From: a virus
Taxonomy: Duplodnaviria > Caudoviricetes
Virus record (IMG/VR): IMGVR_UViG_3300038673_000984
Coordinates: 1 to 46,271 of that record
Length of the DNA stretch: 46,271 nucleotides
Reading direction: 5' to 3' (one strand)
Part shown: positions 1 through 46,271 of the stretch, in pieces
How positions within the stretch are numbered: position 1 is the stretch's first letter
Layout of the letters: the number at the start of each line of letters is the position of its first letter
Notes under the pieces: generated by a model
Told to the model about the DNA's origin: nothing
The model's database searches: none
What the model saw: only the letters and a program-made list of their open reading frames with translations
Program-made: the position numbers and the translations under genes

Positions 1-840
1 TTAATTTTTTGGAAGAACTTTATTTCTCAAGAGCGCAAAATTTTCTTCGGTACTTACAATATAATAGTCCTTCAATTTCCAGGGCGGCGAAGTAAGGAAG
101 TTTTCCGCATCCACCTTATCCATCACTTTACCGGAACGGAAGTTACGCATTTCCATACCGGCCATTCTCACGATCGGCCACGCCCCTGCAATATCCCAAA
201 GATGCGATTGGTCAATGGACCCGCATCCACGTCCGATCAAAGGCCAGCATAAATTAACGGTAGCGCAGCCGGTCGCCATTATCCGGCAGTCACTGTAATC
301 CCAGTTGAAACGTTTGAATAACATGTCGGAAATAAGGAACAAAGAACGGCTGGTTATTTTATGATCGACCCGCCCTATTTTCGCTTTTTCAGGAGCGGCC
401 GCAAAAGGCCGTTTTACGTAAAAAGAATTATCGCCGTCGCAATAGAACAATTCATCCTGTCCGGGAAAATAAACGATACCAAGCCAGGGGCGGTATTCCT
501 TGATCAGGCCGATCGAGACCCCGTATAAAGGAATCTGATTTGCATAAAGCCTTGTTCCGTCGATTGGGTCGACCGACCAGATATAAGTTTTATTGTCCAG
601 AAATTCTTTATTCAGATACTCCCCTCTCCGGGGATCTTCTTCCTCGATCAGGACATGCCCGGGAGAAGAAATGAACCCGGACAAATGCTCATGCGCCAGG
701 TCGGATATCTTTTTATCGGCTAAAGTTATTACCGAATGGTCGGCCTTCAAGTCAGGATCGCTGTTCTTGATCAGATCTTCAGCTATCTGTCCTGCTTTCC
801 GGCAAAAATCGAACATTGTCTCGAGAAATCGGTCTTTCAT
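1..840 (-). CDS. Inositol monophosphatase family protein (host)
   Basis: EEED and VDPIDGT metal-binding motifs, WDIAGA motif; likely start MKDRF at 840. Confidence 0.9.
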   Translation of the reverse strand: MKDRFLETMFDFCRKAGQIAEDLIKNSDPDLKADHSVITLADKKISDLAHEHLSGFISSPGHVLIEEEDPRRGEYLNKEFLDNKTYIWSVDPIDGTRLYANQIPLYGVSIGLIKEYRPWLGIVYFPGQDELFYCDGDNSFYVKRPFAAAPEKAKIGRVDHKITSRSLFLISDMLFKRFNWDYSDCRIMATGCATVNLCWPLIGRGCGSIDQSHLWDIAGAWPIVRMAGMEMRNFRSGKVMDKVDAENFLTSPPWKLKDYYIVSTEENFALLRNKVLPKN

Positions 841-943
841 AGGCGGAAAAAAATAAAGATGAAAAATCAAAATTGTTACCAGAGCAAATGCCTTAACTTA
901 AGGTAAACGTATTATATATAAAAATAAGTATTTAACAACCCAT

Positions 944-1760: not shown

Positions 1761-1781
1761 TTTAGGCACAATTTAGGCACA
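1761..1781 (+). repeat. Tandem TTTAGGCACA x2, left copy; putative integrase arm-type sites
   Basis: TTTAGGCACAATTTAGGCACA, identical to 46224..46244. Confidence 0.8.
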
Positions 1782-21222: not shown

Positions 21223-24153
21223 TTAACGATGTATGCGTATCATTGATTCTATACCGGTATATACTCCGGATTCTTTGTCGCCGTCTGTCGCGTCATTAAC
21301 ACCGGATAAGATATTGCCGGCAGTTCCGGCCGCGTATGATCCGGGAAGTTCTACGGACCAGGGATCACCGGCCGCGGATGCGGCATTAAGCTTGTTACCG
21401 GTTGTTCCTGATGTTAAATGGCCGCTGATCGGCTCATCCCAAACAGCATCGGCGATCTCTAAAGAAGTGGCGCAGCTGGACCCGCCAACCGCTGATATTT
21501 GTCCGTCAAGGTAATATCCGAATGTGCCAGCAGTTGAATGCCCGGATTGAGCCTCATCCCAAATAGCATCGATCCCGGCCGCGCTTAACACATAGCCGGT
21601 CTTATCCCACGTGGTTAAATTGGTCACGGTCCCGATTGTTACTGCAGACTGATCAGCTGCCAGACTATAACCCGTTTTATCATTATTTGTCGTAACGGTA
21701 ACGCCGGCCGTCACGCTTGCGCATGACCCAACCACGTTGCCGCCAACATTGCCAGTAACAGATGCAACCGCACCGCCGGCATAAGTTGACCTGGTTGATA
21801 TAGCAGCGTCAAGATTGGGCGCTTCGCTTGATGTAATGGCATTTGCCGCAATTGCTCCGGCATCTATGGCATTGTCAGCAATTTCGCTTGCGCCGATCGC
21901 GTTCGCCGCGATCGATGCAGCTGTGATCGTGTCAGTGCCCAATGCCGTTATAGTGCCGCCGGTAACTGTCCTGGCTGCAACCGCCCAAACGTCAGCTGCG
22001 GAGTGAGTGCTAAACCCTGTGGCTTTGTATTGTGAAGGATTATCCAGATCGGCTTGTATTGTGGATAAAGAAGCAGGTAATGTTGTGCCTGTGTCTTCTA
22101 AAATTGCTGCAATACTTGTGTTATCTGGAGCAGTATAACTTGCCGATGCTAAACGTGACGATATAGACGCATTAAGGTTGGAACCTAAAATATAACCGGC
22201 TGTTCCGGCTCCATACGCACCAGGAAGCGCGGTGCTCCATGGATCTGCAGCTGCCCCCCAGTTACCAATAATATATCCCGCAGATCCTACAGTATAAGAT
22301 CCTGGAACTTGCGTTGACCATGGATCTCCAGCCGCACCTGCGTTTTTTAAATAAGTTCCAGCATACCCAGCTGTTGAATATGCTGAAATATCTTTATTCC
22401 AAATACTCGATATTCCCGATGAGCTTAACTCATACCCCGTCTTATCATTATTCGTTGTTATAGTCACACCATTCGTGACATTAATTGTTGTCCCAATTGT
22501 TACACCTGATTGATCAGCTTCTAAACTAAATCCGGTTTTATCTGATACCGTCCCAGCCGTAACTGCTCCCCCGGCTGTAATCGCTAAGCTTGAGAAGTTT
22601 GTCGGAAAAGCTTGAGAAAGAGAATAACCAGTTTTATCGTTATTTGTCGTAACGGTAACGCCGTTTGTGACGTTGGTTACGGTCCCGATCGTAGTACCAT
22701 TAATATCAATGGTTGTGCTGTCTTCATCTAAGGCAGTTAAAGTGCGAGTCGCTGATGTCCATACGTCAGCGGCAGAATGGCTGGACCGGCTTGAGATCGA
22801 AGCGTTCAGATTATTTCCGATAATATAACCGGCCGTTCCTGCGCCGTATGCTCCCGGCAAAGCTGTGGACCACGGATCCCCCGCGCTGCCTGCGCCTACA
22901 AGGTAAGTTCCTGCATATCCTGCGGTCACATACCCAGAAATGTCTTTATTCCAGATTGAAGTGATCGCCGCGGATGAAATGCCAAAATCAGCTTTATCGG
23001 TAAGGCTGCGAGTTGCCACCGCCCAAACATCTGCGGCTGAATGTGTGCTGAACCCTGTGGCCTTGTATTGGTCCGGATTATCAAGGTCAGCCTGTGCCGT
23101 TGCCAGTGCCGCGGCCGTTGCCAGCCCGGAAACATCTGCTTTAAAATCACTAGCCACTGCTTGCATGCCAATAACAATATCCTCAACCGATGGAGCAATT
23201 ACGCTACTAACCGTAGCGTCGAGATTATCCTCGATCAGCAATCCATAAGAACCGAAAACATTATTTTCTGATGTTGAGTATCCCCAAACAAATGAAGCTA
23301 GGACTCCAGATGCTGTCGGATTTAACGTATCAATCAAATCCATTTGGTCCCCGGCCTGCGCCGCTGTTTTGGCTGCATCATAAGCTGTAGTTAAAGTCAT
23401 AGCGTCACCCGTGGCGGCCGGTGAAACTGGCAAATTATCGGTCTTAGCCTGAATAGCATTAACAGTTGTATTAATAGTACCGGCTAACGCATAAGCATCA
23501 CCGCTTTGGGCGTTATGAGTGCCAGCTGCCAGTGTCCCAATTATCCGGTCTTGCAAGGTATCAAGAATACTTGCGCCATTTTCTTCCATTTCTGTCTGGA
23601 TCTCAGCAACTGTAGGAACTGCTTCAATAGCAGTTTTAAGCGAACTATTGCCGTATGTGCCGTTATTAACGATCGCATAAGCATCGCCGGTCTGCGCTGT
23701 ATGCCCGGTTAAGGCGGCAACCTCATCAACTTTGCCGCTTGTCACATTGATCGCCCCGCCGTCGTCTGTTGTTGCAAGGTTGAGCGGATCTCCGACAAGT
23801 GTACGGATTAAAAGCGTCTGCGGTATTGCTCCTGTCGTTGATGATTTGACTTGCACGATAACATAATCAGCGTTCATTTCGCTTTGAGTAAGTGATAAAT
23901 AATATTGCCCATTAGAGCCTATCTCCGTTGCTTCATTAGTACAATCAGTGAACCCATCCGGAGCCGCCCCATCAGAAAAAGCGTCAATCTCCGAATCAAG
24001 CCCGGCCGCCCCCGTGATCAATGTGCCGTCGTTCTTCATGATCGGGAACGAAACATGCGTTGCCACATTTTTTTGACGTACGAGTTCGGCGGCTTGTGCC
24101 GTCATCGATGCCAGAAGAAAAAAGGCCGCCATCAATGAAATGAATTTTTTCAT
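21223..24153 (-). CDS. 976-aa Ala/Gly/Thr-rich repetitive protein with Sec signal peptide
   Basis: MKKFISLMAAFFLLASMTAQA/AE; repeated DPWS, DKTG and HSAADVW units. Confidence 0.85.
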   Translation of the reverse strand: MKKFISLMAAFFLLASMTAQAAELVRQKNVATHVSFPIMKNDGTLITGAAGLDSEIDAFSDGAAPDGFTDCTNEATEIGSNGQYYLSLTQSEMNADYVIVQVKSSTTGAIPQTLLIRTLVGDPLNLATTDDGGAINVTSGKVDEVAALTGHTAQTGDAYAIVNNGTYGNSSLKTAIEAVPTVAEIQTEMEENGASILDTLQDRIIGTLAAGTHNAQSGDAYALAGTINTTVNAIQAKTDNLPVSPAATGDAMTLTTAYDAAKTAAQAGDQMDLIDTLNPTASGVLASFVWGYSTSENNVFGSYGLLIEDNLDATVSSVIAPSVEDIVIGMQAVASDFKADVSGLATAAALATAQADLDNPDQYKATGFSTHSAADVWAVATRSLTDKADFGISSAAITSIWNKDISGYVTAGYAGTYLVGAGSAGDPWSTALPGAYGAGTAGYIIGNNLNASISSRSSHSAADVWTSATRTLTALDEDSTTIDINGTTIGTVTNVTNGVTVTTNNDKTGYSLSQAFPTNFSSLAITAGGAVTAGTVSDKTGFSLEADQSGVTIGTTINVTNGVTITTNNDKTGYELSSSGISSIWNKDISAYSTAGYAGTYLKNAGAAGDPWSTQVPGSYTVGSAGYIIGNWGAAADPWSTALPGAYGAGTAGYILGSNLNASISSRLASASYTAPDNTSIAAILEDTGTTLPASLSTIQADLDNPSQYKATGFSTHSAADVWAVAARTVTGGTITALGTDTITAASIAANAIGASEIADNAIDAGAIAANAITSSEAPNLDAAISTRSTYAGGAVASVTGNVGGNVVGSCASVTAGVTVTTNNDKTGYSLAADQSAVTIGTVTNLTTWDKTGYVLSAAGIDAIWDEAQSGHSTAGTFGYYLDGQISAVGGSSCATSLEIADAVWDEPISGHLTSGTTGNKLNAASAAGDPWSVELPGSYAAGTAGNILSGVNDATDGDKESGVYTGIESMIRIHR

Positions 24154-25622
24154 TAAAACACCCCCACGTTAATGCCTACATTGATTGAGTTGAAAGGAAA
24201 ATAGTTAGTATCACCACTGTCGCTGACGGTTACTTCTAAGTAAGGGTCTGTGGTTGTCCCGGAATATTCGGATGATCTAATCGATACCGTGTTCGTTGAC
24301 GTTATTGGCGTCACATTTTCGATATCTAATCCTGTTCGCATACCAAATTTAGAGAACCCTGTTTTAGATATCCAAGTTAATCCAGTAGAATTCAAATTTA
24401 TTTGGTAATACTGACTTGTAGTGTGATCACTCTCATTAAGCCGCGCTCCTTCGGATGGTGAATTTAATTCACCGCAAGTATCAAAATCTTTGGTAGAGAG
24501 TGTCGTTGTGGATGCTTGAGTTGTTTGAACGAAAGCTATATAATTAGATGTGACTTCATCAAAAAATCTGTTACTTATTATATAAAGATTCAGTGATGCA
24601 CTTTCTATAGTAGCAGCATCATCAATACCAGAAGTATCTATTGGTAGAAAAACTCTACGAATATAATAATTCGTAGTGACTTTTACTGTATTTACATCAA
24701 AGGATGTACTTGTATAATCTGCAGTACTACCTGTAGTCGCCCCCCTGACGGTTGTCCAAGAAGCATTTACATTCTGAACAAACCCATCACCAGCACCTTC
24801 GTAATAACTTGTAGGGTGATCTGTATATAATGGATAAACTGCTTTTTGTAGAACTTCCGGAGTAATTATTTTTCTTAAATAAGTTCTGCCATCTTTTACA
24901 TACAAAATAATATCAACGGATTCATTGAGTTCACTGCTATCCCAAACACGGGCATCCCTAAAATAACTCTCCTTTTTTTCAGGTCCTATTTTTAAAATTT
25001 TTCCTTTAAATTCAAGTTGACTTGTTTTGGTCCACACCTGATTCTCTATACTTTTAACTAATTCTTTATTTGCTTTATCTCGAGGCAAATCCATTTCAAA
25101 ATCAAAAAATAATTCTTTAGTGGTGTCTGTTGGTTTTTTATTAATAACGATTACTTTTTTTAACCCTGCCCAATAAGCATACACTTTTAAATCAATACCT
25201 TTACCAAACGCATCTTTGTATAAAACAAAGTTGCCATCATCTGCGTTGTTATGCATTTCACCTTTAACGTGCGCGCAAACAGGTTTTGCTCTAATGGTAT
25301 GATTTGCCCCCTCGTAATTGTTATAAAACTCAAACCAATCGTCAGCATATTGAGGAATTTTAGGCAAATAAGATGCTTTTGATAATTTCCATTTTTTATC
25401 TACAGCATCTAACTCCAATCTTGTATCTATCTTTTCAAAAGCTCCGGTTTTTGGATCTTTATAATTTACGTGAGCAGTATGAATGACATACTTTTTCTTT
25501 CCGTTTCCAATATCAAAAGCATTTTGGTTATATGTTCTTTTGTTTAAAATTTCTTGTTGGGCAAAGCAAACCCCATCGATATGCACAAAGAAAAAAAATA
25601 ATGCTAAGATGATTTTACGCAT
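24153..25622 (-). CDS. Secreted protein with DNRLRE-like C-terminal domain
   Basis: MRKIILALFFFFVHIDGVCFA/QQ; RRVFLPIDTS..IESASLNLY..SSEYSGTTTDPYLEVT; ATG 25622 with GGAGG. Confidence 0.75.
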   Translation of the reverse strand: MRKIILALFFFFVHIDGVCFAQQEILNKRTYNQNAFDIGNGKKKYVIHTAHVNYKDPKTGAFEKIDTRLELDAVDKKWKLSKASYLPKIPQYADDWFEFYNNYEGANHTIRAKPVCAHVKGEMHNNADDGNFVLYKDAFGKGIDLKVYAYWAGLKKVIVINKKPTDTTKELFFDFEMDLPRDKANKELVKSIENQVWTKTSQLEFKGKILKIGPEKKESYFRDARVWDSSELNESVDIILYVKDGRTYLRKIITPEVLQKAVYPLYTDHPTSYYEGAGDGFVQNVNASWTTVRGATTGSTADYTSTSFDVNTVKVTTNYYIRRVFLPIDTSGIDDAATIESASLNLYIISNRFFDEVTSNYIAFVQTTQASTTTLSTKDFDTCGELNSPSEGARLNESDHTTSQYYQINLNSTGLTWISKTGFSKFGMRTGLDIENVTPITSTNTVSIRSSEYSGTTTDPYLEVTVSDSGDTNYFPFNSINVGINVGVF

Positions 25623-25639
25623 TAAGGACCTCCATAAAT

Positions 25640-25783
25640 AAAGCGGCAATCGAGTGATTGGGCACCCAATTGCCGCATGTGTTTGATCCAGGCCGCGTAC
25701 CTGAATTTTTACGTTATTGTATTTTTATATTACGCCAGCTTATTACTGTAAGTAAAGAAAACGCTTCAACAGGGTTGAAAATA
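25640..25783 (-). promoter_or_regulatory. Late promoter/leader unit, copy B
   Basis: TTCAAC-AGG-GTTGAA at 25765-25779; same -35/-10 boxes and terminator stem as copy A. Confidence 0.75.
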
Positions 25784-37342: not shown

Positions 37343-37547
37343 ACTTCACCGACTCCCGTAAAATATTTCGACTTTTACAATTTTTATTGATGATATAGAT
37401 CAACCTAGTCTCTTTACATTTCAAGCAATAAAACATAAAACAAACATCACCCCGGGCATTCTCACTTTTTAAAATGATCACACCGTGTCGAACGTGTATA
37501 TAACGGAATTCTTTTGATACTTTGAATATCGTTTCAATTTGCGACAT
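37332..37547 (-). CDS. Small hypothetical protein
   Basis: 71 aa with CLKC; coupled to neighbours. Confidence 0.5.
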   Translation of the reverse strand: MSQIETIFKVSKEFRYIHVRHGVIILKSENARGDVCFMFYCLKCKETRLIYIINKNCKSRNILRESVKYGA

Positions 37548-38412
37548 GGCTCACTCCTGCCTCAAGAAACTTTTGGAAGATCGATCCGATAACTACCGGA
37601 TCCTTTTTAAAATTGTCATGTTCTTTCACATTACGCGCCGCAAAATACGCTTGCGAACATCGGTATAAAGAATCTAAAAACCAACCGAAATCATTCCGGA
37701 CAATCGCTCCTCGCTCAAGGTAAGATCTTGCGACATCAATGATCACTTCATCCGGAAGCGGCTCATTCAAACCGGATCGCTTATGAAACAAATTGATCAG
37801 CTCGTAAATATTGATCCCTTGGGTAAAAACTGCTTTTAAAACCTCGCGAACCTGGGGGGAAGCTGTGGAAAAGTTTCCTTCTGGATCGGTGTTATTAAAA
37901 GACTTACTATTGGTAGGTATGGTAGGTATGGTGGGTAGGTAGGAGGATTGCTTGAGCATGCCTTTTGCATTACTTGAAGCATTGCCAGAATCACCCGGGG
38001 CATTGCCTGGAGCATTGCTTGAGCATACATCTACCTTATTTTGAGATTTGCCGGAACTTTTGTCTTTTTCCCAACGTGCCCTGGCCGCCTTTTGGGCTTT
38101 ATCTTTTAAGGCGATAATATGCCCTTCATGATCCAGCCAGTCGTGTATCTCATAATCTCCATCCTCACGCCGGACTAAAAACTCCACCTTAACCATAGCA
38201 TCGATCATATCCCCGGGTTTTCCCCACCAATCAACCAGCGATTCGATCTCATGAGTAGAGTAGCCGGTAAACCTGCCGTCTTTAGCATGGTACTTACCGC
38301 AGTAGCACCACAGCTTAATCGGCAGCATTTCTGCCCCTCTCCCTAACAGTCCGACCAGTCGTTTAGTTTTTGGGTGTCCAAAGAAATCCGGATCAAGATT
38401 GATGTATAACAA
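37534..38412 (-). CDS. Phage replication initiator-like protein
   Basis: N-terminal FFGHPK..LWCY..IHDWLDH domain, low-complexity linker containing DNA repeats, GGAGG RBS. Confidence 0.7.
   Translation of the reverse strand: MLYINLDPDFFGHPKTKRLVGLLGRGAEMLPIKLWCYCGKYHAKDGRFTGYSTHEIESLVDWWGKPGDMIDAMVKVEFLVRREDGDYEIHDWLDHEGHIIALKDKAQKAARARWEKDKSSGKSQNKVDVCSSNAPGNAPGDSGNASSNAKGMLKQSSYLPTIPTIPTNSKSFNNTDPEGNFSTASPQVREVLKAVFTQGINIYELINLFHKRSGLNEPLPDEVIIDVARSYLERGAIVRNDFGWFLDSLYRCSQAYFAARNVKEHDNFKKDPVVIGSIFQKFLEAGVSHVAN
37912..38026. repeat. Putative origin iterons inside rep
   Basis: About 4 copies of (GCA)TTRCYTG(R)AGCAT and GGTAGGTAT tandem repeats. Confidence 0.6.
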
Positions 38413-39661: not shown

Positions 39662-40069
39662 CTAATTACCTGATAAGACCAATTGCATCTGTCCGCATTC
39701 ATCAACCTCAATCGGGAACAGTTCTTCACTGGGATAGTTTTGACTATCCTTAAACTTAGCCCAGGCGCTTTTCAGCGTGTTGTACGTCTCAAGCATGTCA
39801 AACAGTTCGCCTTTAAAAGCGCCCAGGCAAGCATCTGCTTCTTGATCATTCTCCGGAATGTAATAACCAAACGGACGCTCTTTCGCAGCTCCAATTAAAA
39901 TCCCGGATCTGCGTAGTTCACGAATTACATTGTTGATCACTCTTATGTTGACACCGTGGATTTGAGCAAGGCGATCGGCTTTTACTGCGGATTTTCGACC
40001 TCTGCAAAACGATTCCAGATATTTGATAACATCGTTCTTGATTTGGTCGGAATGATGAAGTTTAATCAT
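39662..40069 (-). CDS. Winged-HTH protein
   Basis: LAQIHGVNIRVINNVIRELRRSGILIG..GYYI. Confidence 0.7.
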   Translation of the reverse strand: MIKLHHSDQIKNDVIKYLESFCRGRKSAVKADRLAQIHGVNIRVINNVIRELRRSGILIGAAKERPFGYYIPENDQEADACLGAFKGELFDMLETYNTLKSAWAKFKDSQNYPSEELFPIEVDECGQMQLVLSGN

Positions 40070-40105: not shown

Positions 40106-40182
40106 TGGTTGCGGGGGCCGGATTTGAACCGGCGACCCAGAGATTATGATTCTCTTGTTCTGCCTTACTGAACTACCCCGCG
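40106..40182 (-). tRNA. Phage tRNA-Met(CAT) with encoded CCA and initiator-type acceptor stem
   Basis: CGCGGGG TA GTTC..GAAC A AGAGA ATCATAA TCTCT GGGTC GCCGG TTCAAAT CCGGC CCCCGCA ACCA. Confidence 0.92.
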
Positions 40183-40331
40183 AATTTTAGTTCTTCTGTT
40201 AAGATCAAAGGTGGTACAGAACTTACTTTTCCGTCTTTGTCGGTTTTATGCAACCAGCCGCAAGTCGGACAGCGGATCTCGTCATTCTTTTGTTCTAGAT
40301 AGATATTTTCACCGCATTCGCATTTGATCAT
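40173..40331 (-). CDS. Small Zn-ribbon protein
   Basis: CECG..CPTCG; stop lies inside the tRNA 5' end. Confidence 0.5.
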   Translation of the reverse strand: MIKCECGENIYLEQKNDEIRCPTCGWLHKTDKDGKVSSVPPLILTEELKFAG

Positions 40332-40349
40332 TTGATCTGCTTTTTTAGA

Positions 40350-40479
40350 GGCCGCCGGCAAGATTGTTTCATACTTGCATGTCGCAGCATTCGTCCCACA
40401 CCATCACGCGTGGTAATCACCAGCAGCTACTCGACTTCTAAGACTGGTAGTTTCAGCGTCTTATTTCGCCACGACGGCC
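40350..40479 (-). ncRNA. tRNA-like RNA with expanded centre
   Basis: GCCGTCG/CGGCGGC acceptor-like stem, TGGCGAAATAAGACGC D-arm-like segment, GCAAG/CTTGC T-stem. Confidence 0.55.
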
Positions 40480-42519: not shown

Positions 42520-42560
42520 TTGGTGTTCAAAAAAAATTAAGCATTGTCAACGCATGACAA

Positions 42561-42589
42561 AATATACCAAATATGCTTATTTTTGTCAA
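42561..42589 (-). promoter_or_regulatory. Early lytic sigma70 promoter
   Basis: TTGACA-17-TATATT on the minus strand with an operator half-site in the spacer. Confidence 0.75.
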
Positions 42590-42600
42590 TTATTTTTTTT

Positions 42601-43269
42601 ATGGAACTTGAATTAAGAGAAAAAATTAGTTTAGCTCGACGACAAAGAAAATTAACCCAATCAAGGTTAGCTTCATTGATTGGTATAGATATGCAGACTT
42701 ATAGCCGATGGGAGCGGGGTATAATAAAAAAAATCCCATTAGAAGCTATTGTAAAAATTGCTGAAGTTACTGGAAAACCAATCGCATACTTTCTATCTGA
42801 AATCGATGAAACAAAGCTGAAAGTACAAGAATCAACCGCTACATACAACGCCCATCCGATCGATACCGGCGGCTTGTTGCAGATCCCGGTACTCGGGATA
42901 ATTCCCGGTGGAAACATAGATCTTTTTATAGATACCCCTCCCGATTTCCTCACCTTAGATAAAAAGATCCTGGTCAATCAAAACTGTGTAGCCTTCCGGA
43001 TAAGCGGCGACTGTCTCATCGACGCCCGTATTCATGACGGGGATTATGTTCTCGTATCAAAAGATGAAAAGGTAAAGAATGGAGATATTGCGGTAGTCCG
43101 GATCGATAATGAAATAACCTGCAAGATCGTATCCTTGCTGGAAGACGGCCAATTACTGCTGGAATCAGCCAATAAAGCCAACCCATGGAAACGTGTAATT
43201 GACCCCAAAAAGAACTCAATCCGGATAATCGGCCTGGTAACTCAGGCTATAATGCAGTTTAAAAAGTAA
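42601..43269 (+). CDS. CI-like repressor (XRE HTH plus S24 peptidase domain)
   Basis: ARRQRKLTQSRLA..YSRWERG HTH; IPVLG, SGDCL, DGD, TCK. Confidence 0.92.
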   Translation: MELELREKISLARRQRKLTQSRLASLIGIDMQTYSRWERGIIKKIPLEAIVKIAEVTGKPIAYFLSEIDETKLKVQESTATYNAHPIDTGGLLQIPVLGIIPGGNIDLFIDTPPDFLTLDKKILVNQNCVAFRISGDCLIDARIHDGDYVLVSKDEKVKNGDIAVVRIDNEITCKIVSLLEDGQLLLESANKANPWKRVIDPKKNSIRIIGLVTQAIMQFKK

Positions 43270-43490
43270 AAAAGGCTAAAAACGGGCAAATTGTGCGAAA
43301 AATGATAGTTGCAAGGCGAATATGTAGTATAAATAATATGTGAATACCACCCCTGTTCCCTCATCCAAAGATAAAAAACACATATCAGTAGATCTAAAAT
43401 GTTATTTCGATAAACTCCTTGCCGACTATCATGTACCGCCGGGAGCGACAAAAAAGCTTCAAGAATATCAAAACCTTGAACTCCTCCACT

Positions 43491-43991
43491 ATGTCCACAG
43501 ACAAACCAAAAGATAACTTCCCATATAAAATGTACACAATACTGATAGTAGACGACACTAAGACAGACCTCGAGCTTATCTCCGGCATTCTGAAAAGCGA
43601 TTTTAATTGTATTGTCGCAATGGATCCAAAAGAAGCGATCGATATCGTGCAAAAAGAAAAGATCGATCTTATCATCCTGGACCAGATGCTTCCGGGAATG
43701 ACCGGCATTCACTTGCAGGAGAAACTATTGGAGATCAATTCCAATCTGCGGTTTATTATGATCACCTCCCTCGAATCTGTCCAGCTGGCCGTTAAAGCCA
43801 TAAAGAACGGCGCGATCGATTACCTCATCAAGCCGATCGAACCCTATATTCTTATTCACACCATCGAAACCGTCTTAAAACATATATACGTTATGGAAGA
43901 AAAGATCAGACTGGAAAAGCAAAATCAAAACGCGGTCGCGGAGCTGCAGAAGTATAAGAATTTATTCGGAGATCTGCCAAAAGGAGAATAA
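43491..43991 (+). CDS. Stand-alone response regulator receiver with coiled-coil tail
   Basis: ILIVDD, LDQMLPGMTG, MITS, GAIDYLIKP; start may be 43530. Confidence 0.9.
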   Translation: MSTDKPKDNFPYKMYTILIVDDTKTDLELISGILKSDFNCIVAMDPKEAIDIVQKEKIDLIILDQMLPGMTGIHLQEKLLEINSNLRFIMITSLESVQLAVKAIKNGAIDYLIKPIEPYILIHTIETVLKHIYVMEEKIRLEKQNQNAVAELQKYKNLFGDLPKGE

Positions 43992-44426: not shown

Positions 44427-44532
44427 GTTGGCTTGAAAATAAGTCAACTAAACGGTATATTTTAAATAAGAATCTATCCGGACGCCCGTAGGCGGGCACC
44501 AAGGGCATCGGCCAGTAAAATGGTCGGTGCCC
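44427..44532 (+). ncRNA. Structured 5' leader / candidate ncRNA upstream of NYN
   Basis: Hairpins at 44427-44448, 44484-44497 and 44503-44532. Confidence 0.55.
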
Positions 44533-44552
44533 AATCTATTTTAGGAGGGTTT

Positions 44553-45200
44553 ATGTGTAAAGTAGCCGTTCTGATTGATGGAGGTTTTCTACAAAGGGTT
44601 TTTACTTCTAAAAGATCTACGCCGACCCAAAAAGCATTTCCCTCTGCTGATGATGTTATAAACATCGCTAAAATGGTAATTCAACCCGGTGAAAAGCTTT
44701 TCCGGTTATATTATTATGACTGTCCCCCTTTTGAGGATACTACTAAAAATCCAATAAGTAACATTACTGTAAATCACGCCAGATCACCTAAATGCAGGGC
44801 AATTAAAATTTTTCAAGAGGAATTAGCCCAAAAAGAACATGTCGCTTTCAGAAAAGGCGACCTACGTTGCTTTGGTTGGAAATTATCTGATATCGCATTG
44901 CAAAGCATTGAACGTGGAACGCATCCAGGAACGATTAATCCAGCCGATTTAATACCAAATTTTCAACAAAAAGGCCTTGATATGAGAATTGGCTTAGATA
45001 TAGCAGTTCTCTCAACTAAAAGGATCGTTGAAAAAATCGCAATAATTACAGCCGATACTGATTTTATTCCAGCAATGAAGTACGCCAGAAAAGAAGGAAC
45101 TATTATTGCAGTTGTCGATATTGGATCGAATTTAAGAAGCGATATGAAACATCATGCTGATGAAATTATTAAGATCGATTTAACCCAATATACACCATAA
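44553..45200 (+). CDS. NYN (LabA/DUF88, PIN-like) ribonuclease
   Basis: VLIDGG, YYYD, QKGLDMRIGLDI and ADTDFIPA motifs; AGGAGG RBS before ATG 44553. Confidence 0.9.
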   Translation: MCKVAVLIDGGFLQRVFTSKRSTPTQKAFPSADDVINIAKMVIQPGEKLFRLYYYDCPPFEDTTKNPISNITVNHARSPKCRAIKIFQEELAQKEHVAFRKGDLRCFGWKLSDIALQSIERGTHPGTINPADLIPNFQQKGLDMRIGLDIAVLSTKRIVEKIAIITADTDFIPAMKYARKEGTIIAVVDIGSNLRSDMKHHADEIIKIDLTQYTP

Positions 45201-46271
45201 ATGAGCTCCATCCGAAAACGCGGTAAATATTACCACTACAAAGCCTATATTAATGGCGTTGAGCACCGGGAATCACTCCACACATCCGATCGCGCCGAAG
45301 CAAAATACTTGCAGTCCATAAAAGACCGTCAACTGCTTTCCAATAACAATCCATTTGCTTACAAGACGACACCCATCACGGCTATCCTTGACACATACCA
45401 AAAAGACCGAATCAACTACCGCTCAACCAGACATTCCCTCGATTCTTTCCGGCGAATAAACGGGTTTTTGAATCACAACAATATTAATTTTTTATCGGAA
45501 ATAACATCGATCTGCCTCACGGAATACATCAATTCAAAGATCACAGCGGAATATAGCCGATATGAAGCAAATAACATCATCAAAGACGTGAAAGCGTTCA
45601 TCAACTGGTGCGTACGGAAAAAGATCATCTTTGAAAGCCCGGTGGCCGATGTTTCTAAATTGCCAATCGAAGAATCCCCGCGGCGAGCTTATGAAGGAGA
45701 TGAATTATTGGAACTTATAGCGGCCGCCAAATCCGGCATGTCAAAAAAACAACGGGAAAAGGCAAAAAAAAGCGACTACAAACCAGAACGGCTCTACCCT
45801 TGCGTTATGACTGCGCTTTATACCGGGCTGCGCAAATCCGAACTTTTCCGGATGAAATGGGCCGACATCGATTTCGATAATGACACGATCATGGTGCCCA
45901 AAACAAAATCTAAAAAATTCAAATTGGTTCCTATTGCACGGGATCTCAAAAAAATCTTATCTCCACTGCGTTCAGATCCAGATAAGAACTGCTTTGATAT
46001 CACCAACTATACCCGGGTATTAAACCGCATCTTCAGAAATGCCGGCATTAAACATGACCGCGGCTGGCACTTCTTCCGACATACCAACGCCACCCACCTC
46101 CTACGCTCAGGAGTTGACATCAAAACAGTTGCCGGGATCCTGGGCCACTCCTCCACAAACATCACCCAAATATACGTCCACACCACAACAGAATCCATGA
46201 AAAGCGCAGTAAACAAGTTAAAATTTAGGCACAATTTAGGCACACAAAAAAAGAAAACCTCCTCGGTATAA
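45201..46271 (+). CDS. int: Tyrosine integrase
   Basis: TGLRKSE, KTK, HFFRH, LGH and QIY catalytic residues; N-terminal arm-binding domain. Confidence 0.95.
   Translation: MSSIRKRGKYYHYKAYINGVEHRESLHTSDRAEAKYLQSIKDRQLLSNNNPFAYKTTPITAILDTYQKDRINYRSTRHSLDSFRRINGFLNHNNINFLSEITSICLTEYINSKITAEYSRYEANNIIKDVKAFINWCVRKKIIFESPVADVSKLPIEESPRRAYEGDELLELIAAAKSGMSKKQREKAKKSDYKPERLYPCVMTALYTGLRKSELFRMKWADIDFDNDTIMVPKTKSKKFKLVPIARDLKKILSPLRSDPDKNCFDITNYTRVLNRIFRNAGIKHDRGWHFFRHTNATHLLRSGVDIKTVAGILGHSSTNITQIYVHTTTESMKSAVNKLKFRHNLGTQKKKTSSV
46224..46244 (+). repeat. Tandem TTTAGGCACA x2, right copy inside the int 3' end
   Basis: Identical to 1761..1781, same orientation. Confidence 0.8.

What the first reader, a model, noticed from the sequence alone, without database searches (positions are those of the whole stretch)
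40106..40182. Chimeric tRNA-Met: initiator acceptor stem, rewritten anticodon arm
Seen: C1:A72 mismatch, G2:C71, C3:G70 and A73 (formylation determinants), but the anticodon stem is AGAGA/TCTCT without the three G:C pairs, position 32 is A, and the D stem has U11:A24. Established: the 3GC pairs favour P-site/IF3 selection, and enteric VapC toxins cleave tRNA-fMet in the anticodon stem-loop. Inference: a nuclease-resistant substitute initiator tRNA (anti-defence), or a decoy.
Basis: partly seen in the sequence, partly recalled or inferred. Interest (0 to 1): 0.7.

Follow-up and report, generated by a model that had tools for sequence, protein, structure and literature searches.

The report
Phage start-tRNA with elongator arms
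A prophage carries an intact methionine tRNA that has the end of a protein-starting tRNA but the arms of an ordinary protein-extending one, a build that recurs in many phages and likely lets them keep starting proteins when a host enzyme cuts the normal start tRNA.

Summary
The tRNA is real and intact. It lies in the early operon of a lambda-like prophage whose host is likely Omnitrophota. The stem keeps the middle G30:C40 pair, the one E. coli work found essential. The arm is also not a novel rewrite: A31:U39, A32, U12:A23 and A26 are states of a widespread elongator tRNA-Met that already has G2:C71, C3:G70 and A73, so C1×A72 is the only clear initiator mark. The C1-mismatch plus A31:U39 build occurs as 73 distinct sequences in viral contigs. 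All 73 keep the 1:72 mismatch, and 214 of 219 free stem cells pair. It was not found among the initiator-type genes matched in 413 cellular genomes of three phyla. Best reading (0.45): a working initiator that escapes initiator-specific anticodon nucleases, since enteric VapC cuts A38/C39 and this tRNA has U39. Rivals are a dual initiator/elongator role, relaxed selection, and escape from DNA-level attack. Expression, charging, cleavage and the host's own initiator are untested. The scan noted other odd initiator variants before on other DNA, but no look-alike of this one.

The parts
40106..40182 (-). tRNA(CAU) gene, 77 nt with encoded CCA: C1×A72 acceptor end, elongator-type D arm and anticodon arm
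40176..40182 (-). Acceptor stem 5' strand (C1, G2, C3, G4-G7)
40110..40117 (-). Acceptor stem 3' strand with A72, plus discriminator A73
40157..40173 (-). D arm with U11:A24 and U12:A23 (initiators have A11:U24 and G12:C23)
   Evidence: PMC1635315 passages
40139..40155 (-). Anticodon arm: A29:U41, G30:C40, A31:U39, loop with A32, U33, CAU, A37, A38
42561..42589 (-). Best promoter-like match (11 of 12, extended -10), pointing into the early operon that holds the tRNA; consensus match only
   Evidence: 9 sites found, 8.8 expected by chance; this is the top match
40173..40361 (-). Upstream 62-aa Cys-rich ORF whose stop codon is tRNA nucleotides 8-10; no homologue but itself
39662..40069 (-). Downstream 135-aa HTH-like early gene (phrog_2113), starting 37 nt after the CCA
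37534..38412 (-). Replication initiation protein, same operon
42544..43269 (+). CI-like repressor (HTH plus S24 peptidase), showing a temperate phage
45201..46271 (+). Tyrosine integrase
1..870 (-). Host-side inositol monophosphatase gene, used for the host assignment

Best explanation
This prophage tRNA has the mismatched C1×A72 end of a start (initiator) tRNA on the D and anticodon arms of an elongator methionine tRNA, and it likely works as a spare initiator that host nucleases aimed at the normal initiator's anticodon arm would fail to cut. Shown: the gene, its pairs, its place in the early operon, the recurrence of the build in phages, and its absence from the cellular initiators sampled. 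Inferred steps: (1) it is transcribed with the early genes on induction and cut out of the polycistronic RNA; (2) MetRS charges it through CAU; (3) Fmt formylates it through C1×A72, G2:C71, C3:G70 and A73, probably more slowly without A11:U24; (4) the kept G30:C40 pair carries it through 30S-to-70S initiation at reduced efficiency; (5) U39 and the elongator-type stem hide it from VapC-like enzymes that must tell initiator from elongator tRNA-Met.
For: Selection on the class. A scan for initiator 5' end plus G30, A31:U39 gave 116 viral loci; 113 were parsed, giving 73 distinct sequences. At positions the pattern left free, 73 of 73 have a mismatched 1:72 (none G72), 71 have G2:C71, 72 have C3:G70, 70 have A73, and 214 of 219 cells at 27:43-29:41 pair, with all four Watson-Crick types at 27:43 and 28:42. 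In a sample that left the arm free, 93 of 97 distinct viral sequences keep G30:C40 and 12 have A31:U39. Phage bias. 0 of 201 Pseudomonadota genomes match the A31:U39 pattern, while 129 of 201 match the general one. All 38 Spirochaetota matches (38 of 121 genomes) and all 59 Chloroflexota matches (48 of 91 genomes) have G31:C39, read by eye. The exact au/GC/au form gave only 36 loci in the metagenome collection, 27 distinct. Of 26 examined, 10 have phage structural or replication neighbours, 7 have other PHROG hits, 9 have none, and none lies by rimP, nusA or a ribosomal protein gene. The class sits near locus ends in 6 of 113 cases against 36 of 120 for the G31:C39 form. Cultured phages RHph_X66, Philippe, Nican01 and RHph_Y65 carry the GGA/UCC form. 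Function. G30 is the crucial base (PMC5389676). Enteric VapC cuts A38/C39 and solely tRNA-fMet (PMC4105405, passages). T5 tRNA-Lys with anticodon stem-loop changes escapes PARIS (bioRxiv 2024.01.02.573894, passages). Three tRNA arrays (L086, L089, L447) hold a separate G1·U72 elongator beside the A31:U39 tRNA, which leaves it the initiator slot.
Against: There are no data on expression, charging, formylation or cleavage. The tRNA fails three features found in cellular initiators (A11:U24, G12:C23, G31; PMC1635315). The 3rd AU mutant grows poorly at 22 C. au/GC/au and A32 were not among the mutants tested. A32 occurs in 0 of 73 class members, so this copy is an outlier in its class. The 73 sequences are not independent events. 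Most viral initiator-type genes are G31:C39 (about 1100 estimated against 116), so the change is not needed by most phages. Three phages related through the replication protein (41-57% identity) have no tRNA at all. PMC10264068 (section 4) reports that enteric phages generally avoid encoding tRNA-fMet.
Confidence: 0.45

Rival explanations
1. Dual-function methionine tRNA. Loss of A11:U24 slows formylation, so part of the pool starts proteins and part goes to EF-Tu for internal AUG codons; one gene supplies both roles, as in mitochondria.
For: The D and anticodon arms are elongator-type. In 13 near-complete phage records of the class it is the only matched CAU tRNA in 11; the other 2 add an Ile2-like one, and none has a separate elongator. 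Formylation rate decides the route (PMC7949028, passages). A11:U24 is present in only 10 of 73 class members against 68 of 79 G31:C39 viral genes.
Against: The E. coli dual-function mutants all altered the acceptor stem, and wild-type C1×A72 tRNA could not sustain elongation (PMC6265465, passages). This tRNA has a wild-type acceptor stem, and 73 of 73 class members keep the mismatch. Three arrays carry a separate elongator.
Confidence: 0.2
2. Plain supplement under relaxed selection. The phage adds initiator supply and keeps only the essentials (CAU, 1:72 mismatch, G30:C40); other positions drift toward generic tRNA states with no anti-nuclease selection.
For: Many stem variants sustain E. coli. 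Viral initiator-type genes vary in several ways. U11:A24 also occurs in 5 of 38 Spirochaetota initiators.
Against: A31:U39 comes together with loss of A11:U24 (10 of 73 against 68 of 79). A31:U39 is the commonest change at 31:39 in the free sample. Both point to a defined build, not scatter.
Confidence: 0.15
3. Escape at the DNA level. An intact copy of the host initiator gene would be a target for the homing endonuclease of the tRNA-fMet group I intron or for integrases that use tRNA-Met genes; the different arm protects the phage DNA.
For: The window differs from five cellular initiators at 10-12 of 23 positions around the anticodon but at 0-1 of the first 9 (the extent of the enzyme's site is recalled, not looked up). 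The intron sits after U33 in L468, and its ORF matches PDB 2OST. The family has 1675 homologues across several phyla. Unchecked earlier notes report this intron in Omnitrophota. tRNA-Met genes often lie at prophage ends.
Against: No Omnitrophota name appears among the best 120 endonuclease hits. The D-arm changes at positions 11, 12 and 23 lie outside that window. An elongator-type arm explains the same differences.
Confidence: 0.1
4. Decoy, processing signal or decaying gene, with no role in translation.
For: It is squeezed between two ORFs and overlaps the upstream stop codon. Distant relatives lack it.
Against: All stems are intact and CCA is encoded. The class keeps its formylation identity. 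A decoy should mimic the host arm.
Confidence: 0.06
5. Lysidine-modified tRNA-Ile2 that reads AUA.
For: CAU anticodon with an A31:U39 stem.
Against: C3:G70 marks Met; Ile2 has G3/A3 with C70/U70 and often C4:G69 and C5:G68 (PMC1635315), none of which is present. AUA is not enriched in phage genes (18.5 per 1000 in 17 genes against 21.5 in the two host-side genes).
Confidence: 0.04

Closest known systems
Bacterial initiator tRNA-fMet (E. coli metZWV/metY type; natural variants au/GC/GC, GC/GC/gu, au/GC/gu, PMC5389676)
   Same: CAU, C1×A72, G2:C71, C3:G70, A73, G30:C40
   Different: A31:U39 where all listed natural variants keep G31; U11:A24, U12:A23, A26 and A32; phage-borne
Elongator tRNA-Met of the G1·U72 type (L594, L599 in whole genomes; L514 at a prophage end)
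   Same: Acceptor pairs 2-7, A73, A9, U12:A23, A26, G30:C40, A31:U39, A32·A38. L514 is identical in acceptor 2-7/66-71 and in the T arm.
   Different: C1×A72 instead of a paired or wobble 1:72; T stem C50:G64 and C51:G63, rare in that set (2 and 3 of 30)
Nuclease-resistant phage tRNAs (T5 tRNA-Lys against PARIS; mycobacteriophage tRNAs against VapC, PMC10264068)
   Same: Phage copy of an essential tRNA with changes at or near a known cut site in the anticodon stem-loop
   Different: Those are elongators; here the target would be the initiator. Resistance is untested here.
Dual-function tRNA-Met (mammalian mitochondria; E. coli mutants of PMC6265465)
   Same: Mixed initiator and elongator features in one gene
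   Different: Those weaken formylation at the acceptor stem; this one keeps the full acceptor identity and changes the lower arms

Membership tests
Bacterial initiator tRNA-fMet | CAU anticodon in a cloverleaf tRNA | tested here: met
Bacterial initiator tRNA-fMet | C1×A72 mismatch with G2:C71, C3:G70, A73 | tested here: met
   determinants as in PMC9976931 passage
Bacterial initiator tRNA-fMet | A11:U24 and G12:C23 in the D stem | tested here: not met
   U11:A24 and U12:A23; PMC1635315
Bacterial initiator tRNA-fMet | R29-G30-G31 / Y39-C40-Y41 | tested here: not met
   A31:U39; signature from PMC1635315
Bacterial initiator tRNA-fMet | Middle pair G30:C40, the essential one in E. coli | tested here: met
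   PMC5389676
Bacterial initiator tRNA-fMet | Formylated and used at the P site | not testable with these tools
   needs bench assays
Elongator tRNA-Met (G1·U72 type) | Paired or wobble 1:72 | tested here: not met
   C1×A72; the comparison set was selected for G1:C72 or G1·U72
Elongator tRNA-Met (G1·U72 type) | C3:G70, Y11:R24, U12:A23, A26, A31:U39, A32 | tested here: met
   U12:A23 30 of 30 and A26 26 of 30 were free positions; A31 and A32 were fixed by the search but seen independently in L594 and L599
tRNA-Ile2 (lysidine) | G3 or A3 with C70 or U70; often C4:G69 and C5:G68 | tested here: not met
   C3:G70, G4:C69, G5:C68; PMC1635315
Nuclease-resistant phage tRNA | Change at or next to a known cut site | tested here: met
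   U39 against C39 at the A38/C39 cut reported in PMC4105405; C39 is the state in the cellular initiators sampled, not in the unseen host gene
Nuclease-resistant phage tRNA | Host encodes a nuclease against this tRNA | not testable with these tools
   only the window is held as G000
Nuclease-resistant phage tRNA | Resists cleavage and rescues infection | not testable with these tools
   needs bench assays

The most novel reading that the evidence does not exclude
Many unrelated phages have built a camouflaged initiator tRNA, an elongator tRNA-Met body made formylatable by a 1:72 mismatch. It restores translation initiation after initiator-cutting host defences fire and may also serve elongation. 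Because such genes would be classed as ordinary tRNA-Met, phages would not in fact avoid tRNA-fMet; they would carry it in disguise.
Probability: 0.3. Interest if true: 0.75.

Novelty: new variant of a known kind. Interest (0 to 1): 0.52.

Why it matters
Papers on phage tRNAs treat tRNA-fMet as something phages rarely encode, and use that to dismiss VapC evasion (PMC10264068 section 4; PMC12482277 passages). A recurrent, selected class with a formylatable end and elongator arms would be easy to misclassify. It offers a direct test of whether initiator cleavage is an anti-phage defence and whether phages counter it. Cultured phages with the GGA/UCC form exist, so the class is testable now. It also gives natural variants for asking how little a tRNA needs to start translation.

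Tried and rejected
Close relatives of this prophage: the downstream HTH gene found none in viral contigs. The replication protein found 3 distant phages without tRNAs. Contigs of a related strain in run X4 flank the gene but do not cover it among the pieces listed (22 pieces not shown). So conservation in near relatives is untested. The genome scan with the host gene gave only 22-34% matches from other phyla, so no Omnitrophota genome could be searched and the host's initiator stays unseen. No RNA holder was listed. Laying four runs on an intron-bearing initiator gene gave no cover of the intron body in X1-X3 at 80% likeness and some cover in X4; a hole proves nothing. The homing endonuclease has no relative in viral contigs. 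A local pattern for intron-split genes matched 0 of 470 loci but also missed the known case L468, so it is uninformative. The idea that the tRNA protects against the prophage's own NYN RNase was dropped as a general rule: 0 of 44 class records have NYN. BLAST against cultured phages gave at best 78% over the full length. PMC5763043 and PMC3008403 are not held, so the VapC stem determinants and the endonuclease site could not be read at source. Supplements were not consulted; those of PMC10264068 and PMC12482277 may list phage CAU tRNAs of this type. No tree was built; 77 nt will not resolve whether the ancestor was an initiator or an elongator. tRNAscan-SE isotype scoring was not run, as it is not among the tools offered.

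Full report
Setting. The window is a lambda-like temperate prophage. It has tail, capsid, portal and gpA terminase genes, a replication initiator, a CI-like repressor and an integrase. Host genes and a tRNA-Arg lie at the left end. All 7 homologues of the left-end inositol monophosphatase that carry an organism name, among the best 120 listed of 253, are Candidatus Omnitrophota at 49-54% identity, so the host is likely of that phylum. The tRNA lies on the minus strand in the early run of genes between the cro-like gene and the replication gene. The best promoter-like match points into this run, but the scan found no more sites than chance (9 against 8.8).

Observation. The gene is real and matches sequencing contigs without differences in two samples of one study. 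The stated bases are correct. The phrase 'without the three G:C pairs' is not: the triplet reads au/GC/au. PMC5389676 (passages and sections 17-18) shows that G30 is the crucial base. In that work 1st AU, 3rd AU, au/GC/gu and au/gu/au mutants sustain E. coli, 3AU does not, and several variants grow poorly in the cold. au/GC/au is not in its list.

What the arm is. A scan for G30-A31-A32-U33-CAU-AA-U39-C40 in viral contigs returned 122 loci, about 320 estimated, 95 distinct. Most are a G1·U72 tRNA with G2:C71, C3:G70 and A73, often at contig ends. In two whole genomes this type is the third CAU tRNA beside the initiator and an Ile2-type gene. With C3:G70 it is the elongator tRNA-Met by the rule of PMC1635315 (passages). 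I compared 30 full-length elongators of this type with 80 G31:C39 initiator-type genes. The window has U12:A23 (30 of 30 against 5 of 80) and A26 (26 of 30 against 6 of 80), and lacks A11:U24 (0 of 30 against 72 of 80). A31:U39 and A32 were fixed by the search, so that part of the comparison is circular apart from the two genome copies. The acceptor and T arm do not discriminate: L514, an elongator next to a prophage serine recombinase, is identical there apart from 1:72, and many initiators match the acceptor too. So the molecule is an elongator-type lower half with an initiator 1:72. Which parent came first is not resolved.

A recurrent class. The C1 plus A31:U39 build gave 116 viral loci. 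113 were parsed and 3 truncated ones dropped, giving 73 distinct sequences. At free positions, 73 of 73 have a mismatched 1:72, 71 have G2:C71, 72 have C3:G70, 70 have A73, and 214 of 219 stem cells pair with varied pair types. At 29:41, 60 have G:C, 10 have A:U as in the window, and 3 have U:A. None has A32. These are sequences, not independent events. In a sample that left the arm free, 12 of 97 distinct sequences have A31:U39 (one with a UAU anticodon) and 93 keep G30:C40; one row was misparsed. Of 8 cultured-phage loci fetched, 4 carry the GGA/UCC form on an initiator-like acceptor, and one Vibrio phage tRNA has A32 on a different acceptor. 35 of 55 loci with full 2.5-kb flanks hold it as the only tRNA.

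Cellular controls. In Pseudomonadota, 129 of 201 genomes match the general pattern, and all listed matches have G31:C39, with 56 unlisted; 0 of the same 201 match the A31:U39 pattern. In Spirochaetota, 38 of 38 matches are G31:C39 and five have U11:A24. In Chloroflexota, 59 of 59 are G31:C39. In the metagenome collection the au/GC/au form gave 36 loci, 27 distinct. I scanned 101 of 108 neighbouring ORFs from 26 of them. Ten have phage hallmarks, 7 have other PHROG hits, and 9 have none; the only translation gene seen was EF-P in one locus. That rarity argues indirectly against au/GC/au being the normal initiator of a well-sampled phylum. Omnitrophota and Patescibacteria were not sampled. An earlier unchecked note says Microgenomatia cells use an initiator with only the middle pair.

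Mechanism. MetRS reads CAU, and formylation depends mainly on C1×A72 with minor help from A73, G2:C71, C3:G70 and G4:C69 (PMC9976931, passages); A11:U24 assists (PMC7949028, passages). All but the last are present, so formylation is predicted. Enteric VapC cuts between A38 and C39 and only the initiator (PMC4105405, passages). Since initiator and elongator share CAU, an elongator-type stem is a plausible way to hide; this step is inference. The T5 tRNA-Lys and PARIS case is a tested precedent for an elongator (bioRxiv 2024.01.02.573894, passages). I put this reading at 0.45. A dual role (0.2) fits the lack of a separate elongator in 13 of 13 near-complete records. It conflicts with the finding that wild-type C1×A72 tRNA cannot sustain elongation (PMC6265465, passages) and with three arrays that carry a separate elongator. 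Relaxed selection (0.15), DNA-level escape (0.1), decoy or decay (0.06) and Ile2 (0.04) follow. The DNA-level idea came from earlier notes on intron-split Omnitrophota initiator genes. I confirmed the intron type and its endonuclease in a Synechocystis genome (PMC1995217 passages) but could not tie it to this host.

Comparison and novelty. It is not a member of the canonical tRNA-fMet family, because three defining features tested are not met. It is not an elongator either, because 1:72 is mismatched. It is predicted to work like an initiator. Ten paper searches returned no description of a phage class with this build. I saw listings for most hits and passages or sections of 14 papers, among them PMC10264068 (passages and section 4), PMC12482277, PMC8522696, PMC7180214, PMC3943268 and bioRxiv 2025.06.29.662172 (passages). 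The library lacks most subscription journals, and supplements were not read. A sequence look-up among earlier findings found no look-alike. Verdict: a new variant of a known kind, real and selected as a class, with an untested but testable anti-defence role. Interest 0.52.

Noticed in passing
window 44520-45200 (+): NYN-domain (PIN-like) RNase gene next to the integrase; weak Pfam and PADLOC hits. It could be a lysogen-expressed defence gene. Not linked to the tRNA class (0 of 44 records).
   Followed up: partly
window 40173-40361 (-): 62-aa Cys-rich ORF ends inside the tRNA, so 5' processing of the tRNA would remove its stop codon. It has no homologue but itself.
   Followed up: partly
window 1761-1781 and 46224-46244: Identical 21-nt element made of a repeated 10-mer near both prophage ends, like integrase arm-type sites. 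The core attachment site was not found in the window.
   Followed up: no
window 43419-43991 (+): Stand-alone response-regulator receiver gene between the repressor and the integrase.
   Followed up: no
window 21223-25649 (-): Two large ORFs (976 and 498 aa) between terminase and portal with no Pfam, PHROG or PADLOC hit.
   Followed up: no
L336, L348, L357, L382: Viral tRNAs with an initiator-type acceptor but anticodons GAC, UAU or CAG.
   Followed up: no
L318, L337, L339, L315: A second recurrent viral initiator variant that keeps most of the stem but changes 37-38 to UC or UA, also next to the VapC cut.
   Followed up: no
L445 325-401 and 821-895: tRNA array with two different C1-mismatch CAU tRNAs.
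   Followed up: no
L614 1152-1228 and L610 1501-1577 (record G419): A prophage inserted at an elongator tRNA-Met gene also carries an internal initiator-type tRNA with C11:G24.
   Followed up: partly
L468 1502-2230: Synechocystis initiator gene split after U33 by a group I intron with an I-Ssp6803I-like ORF. Named homologues reach Nitrospiraceae, Poribacteria, Patescibacteria and NC10.
   Followed up: partly
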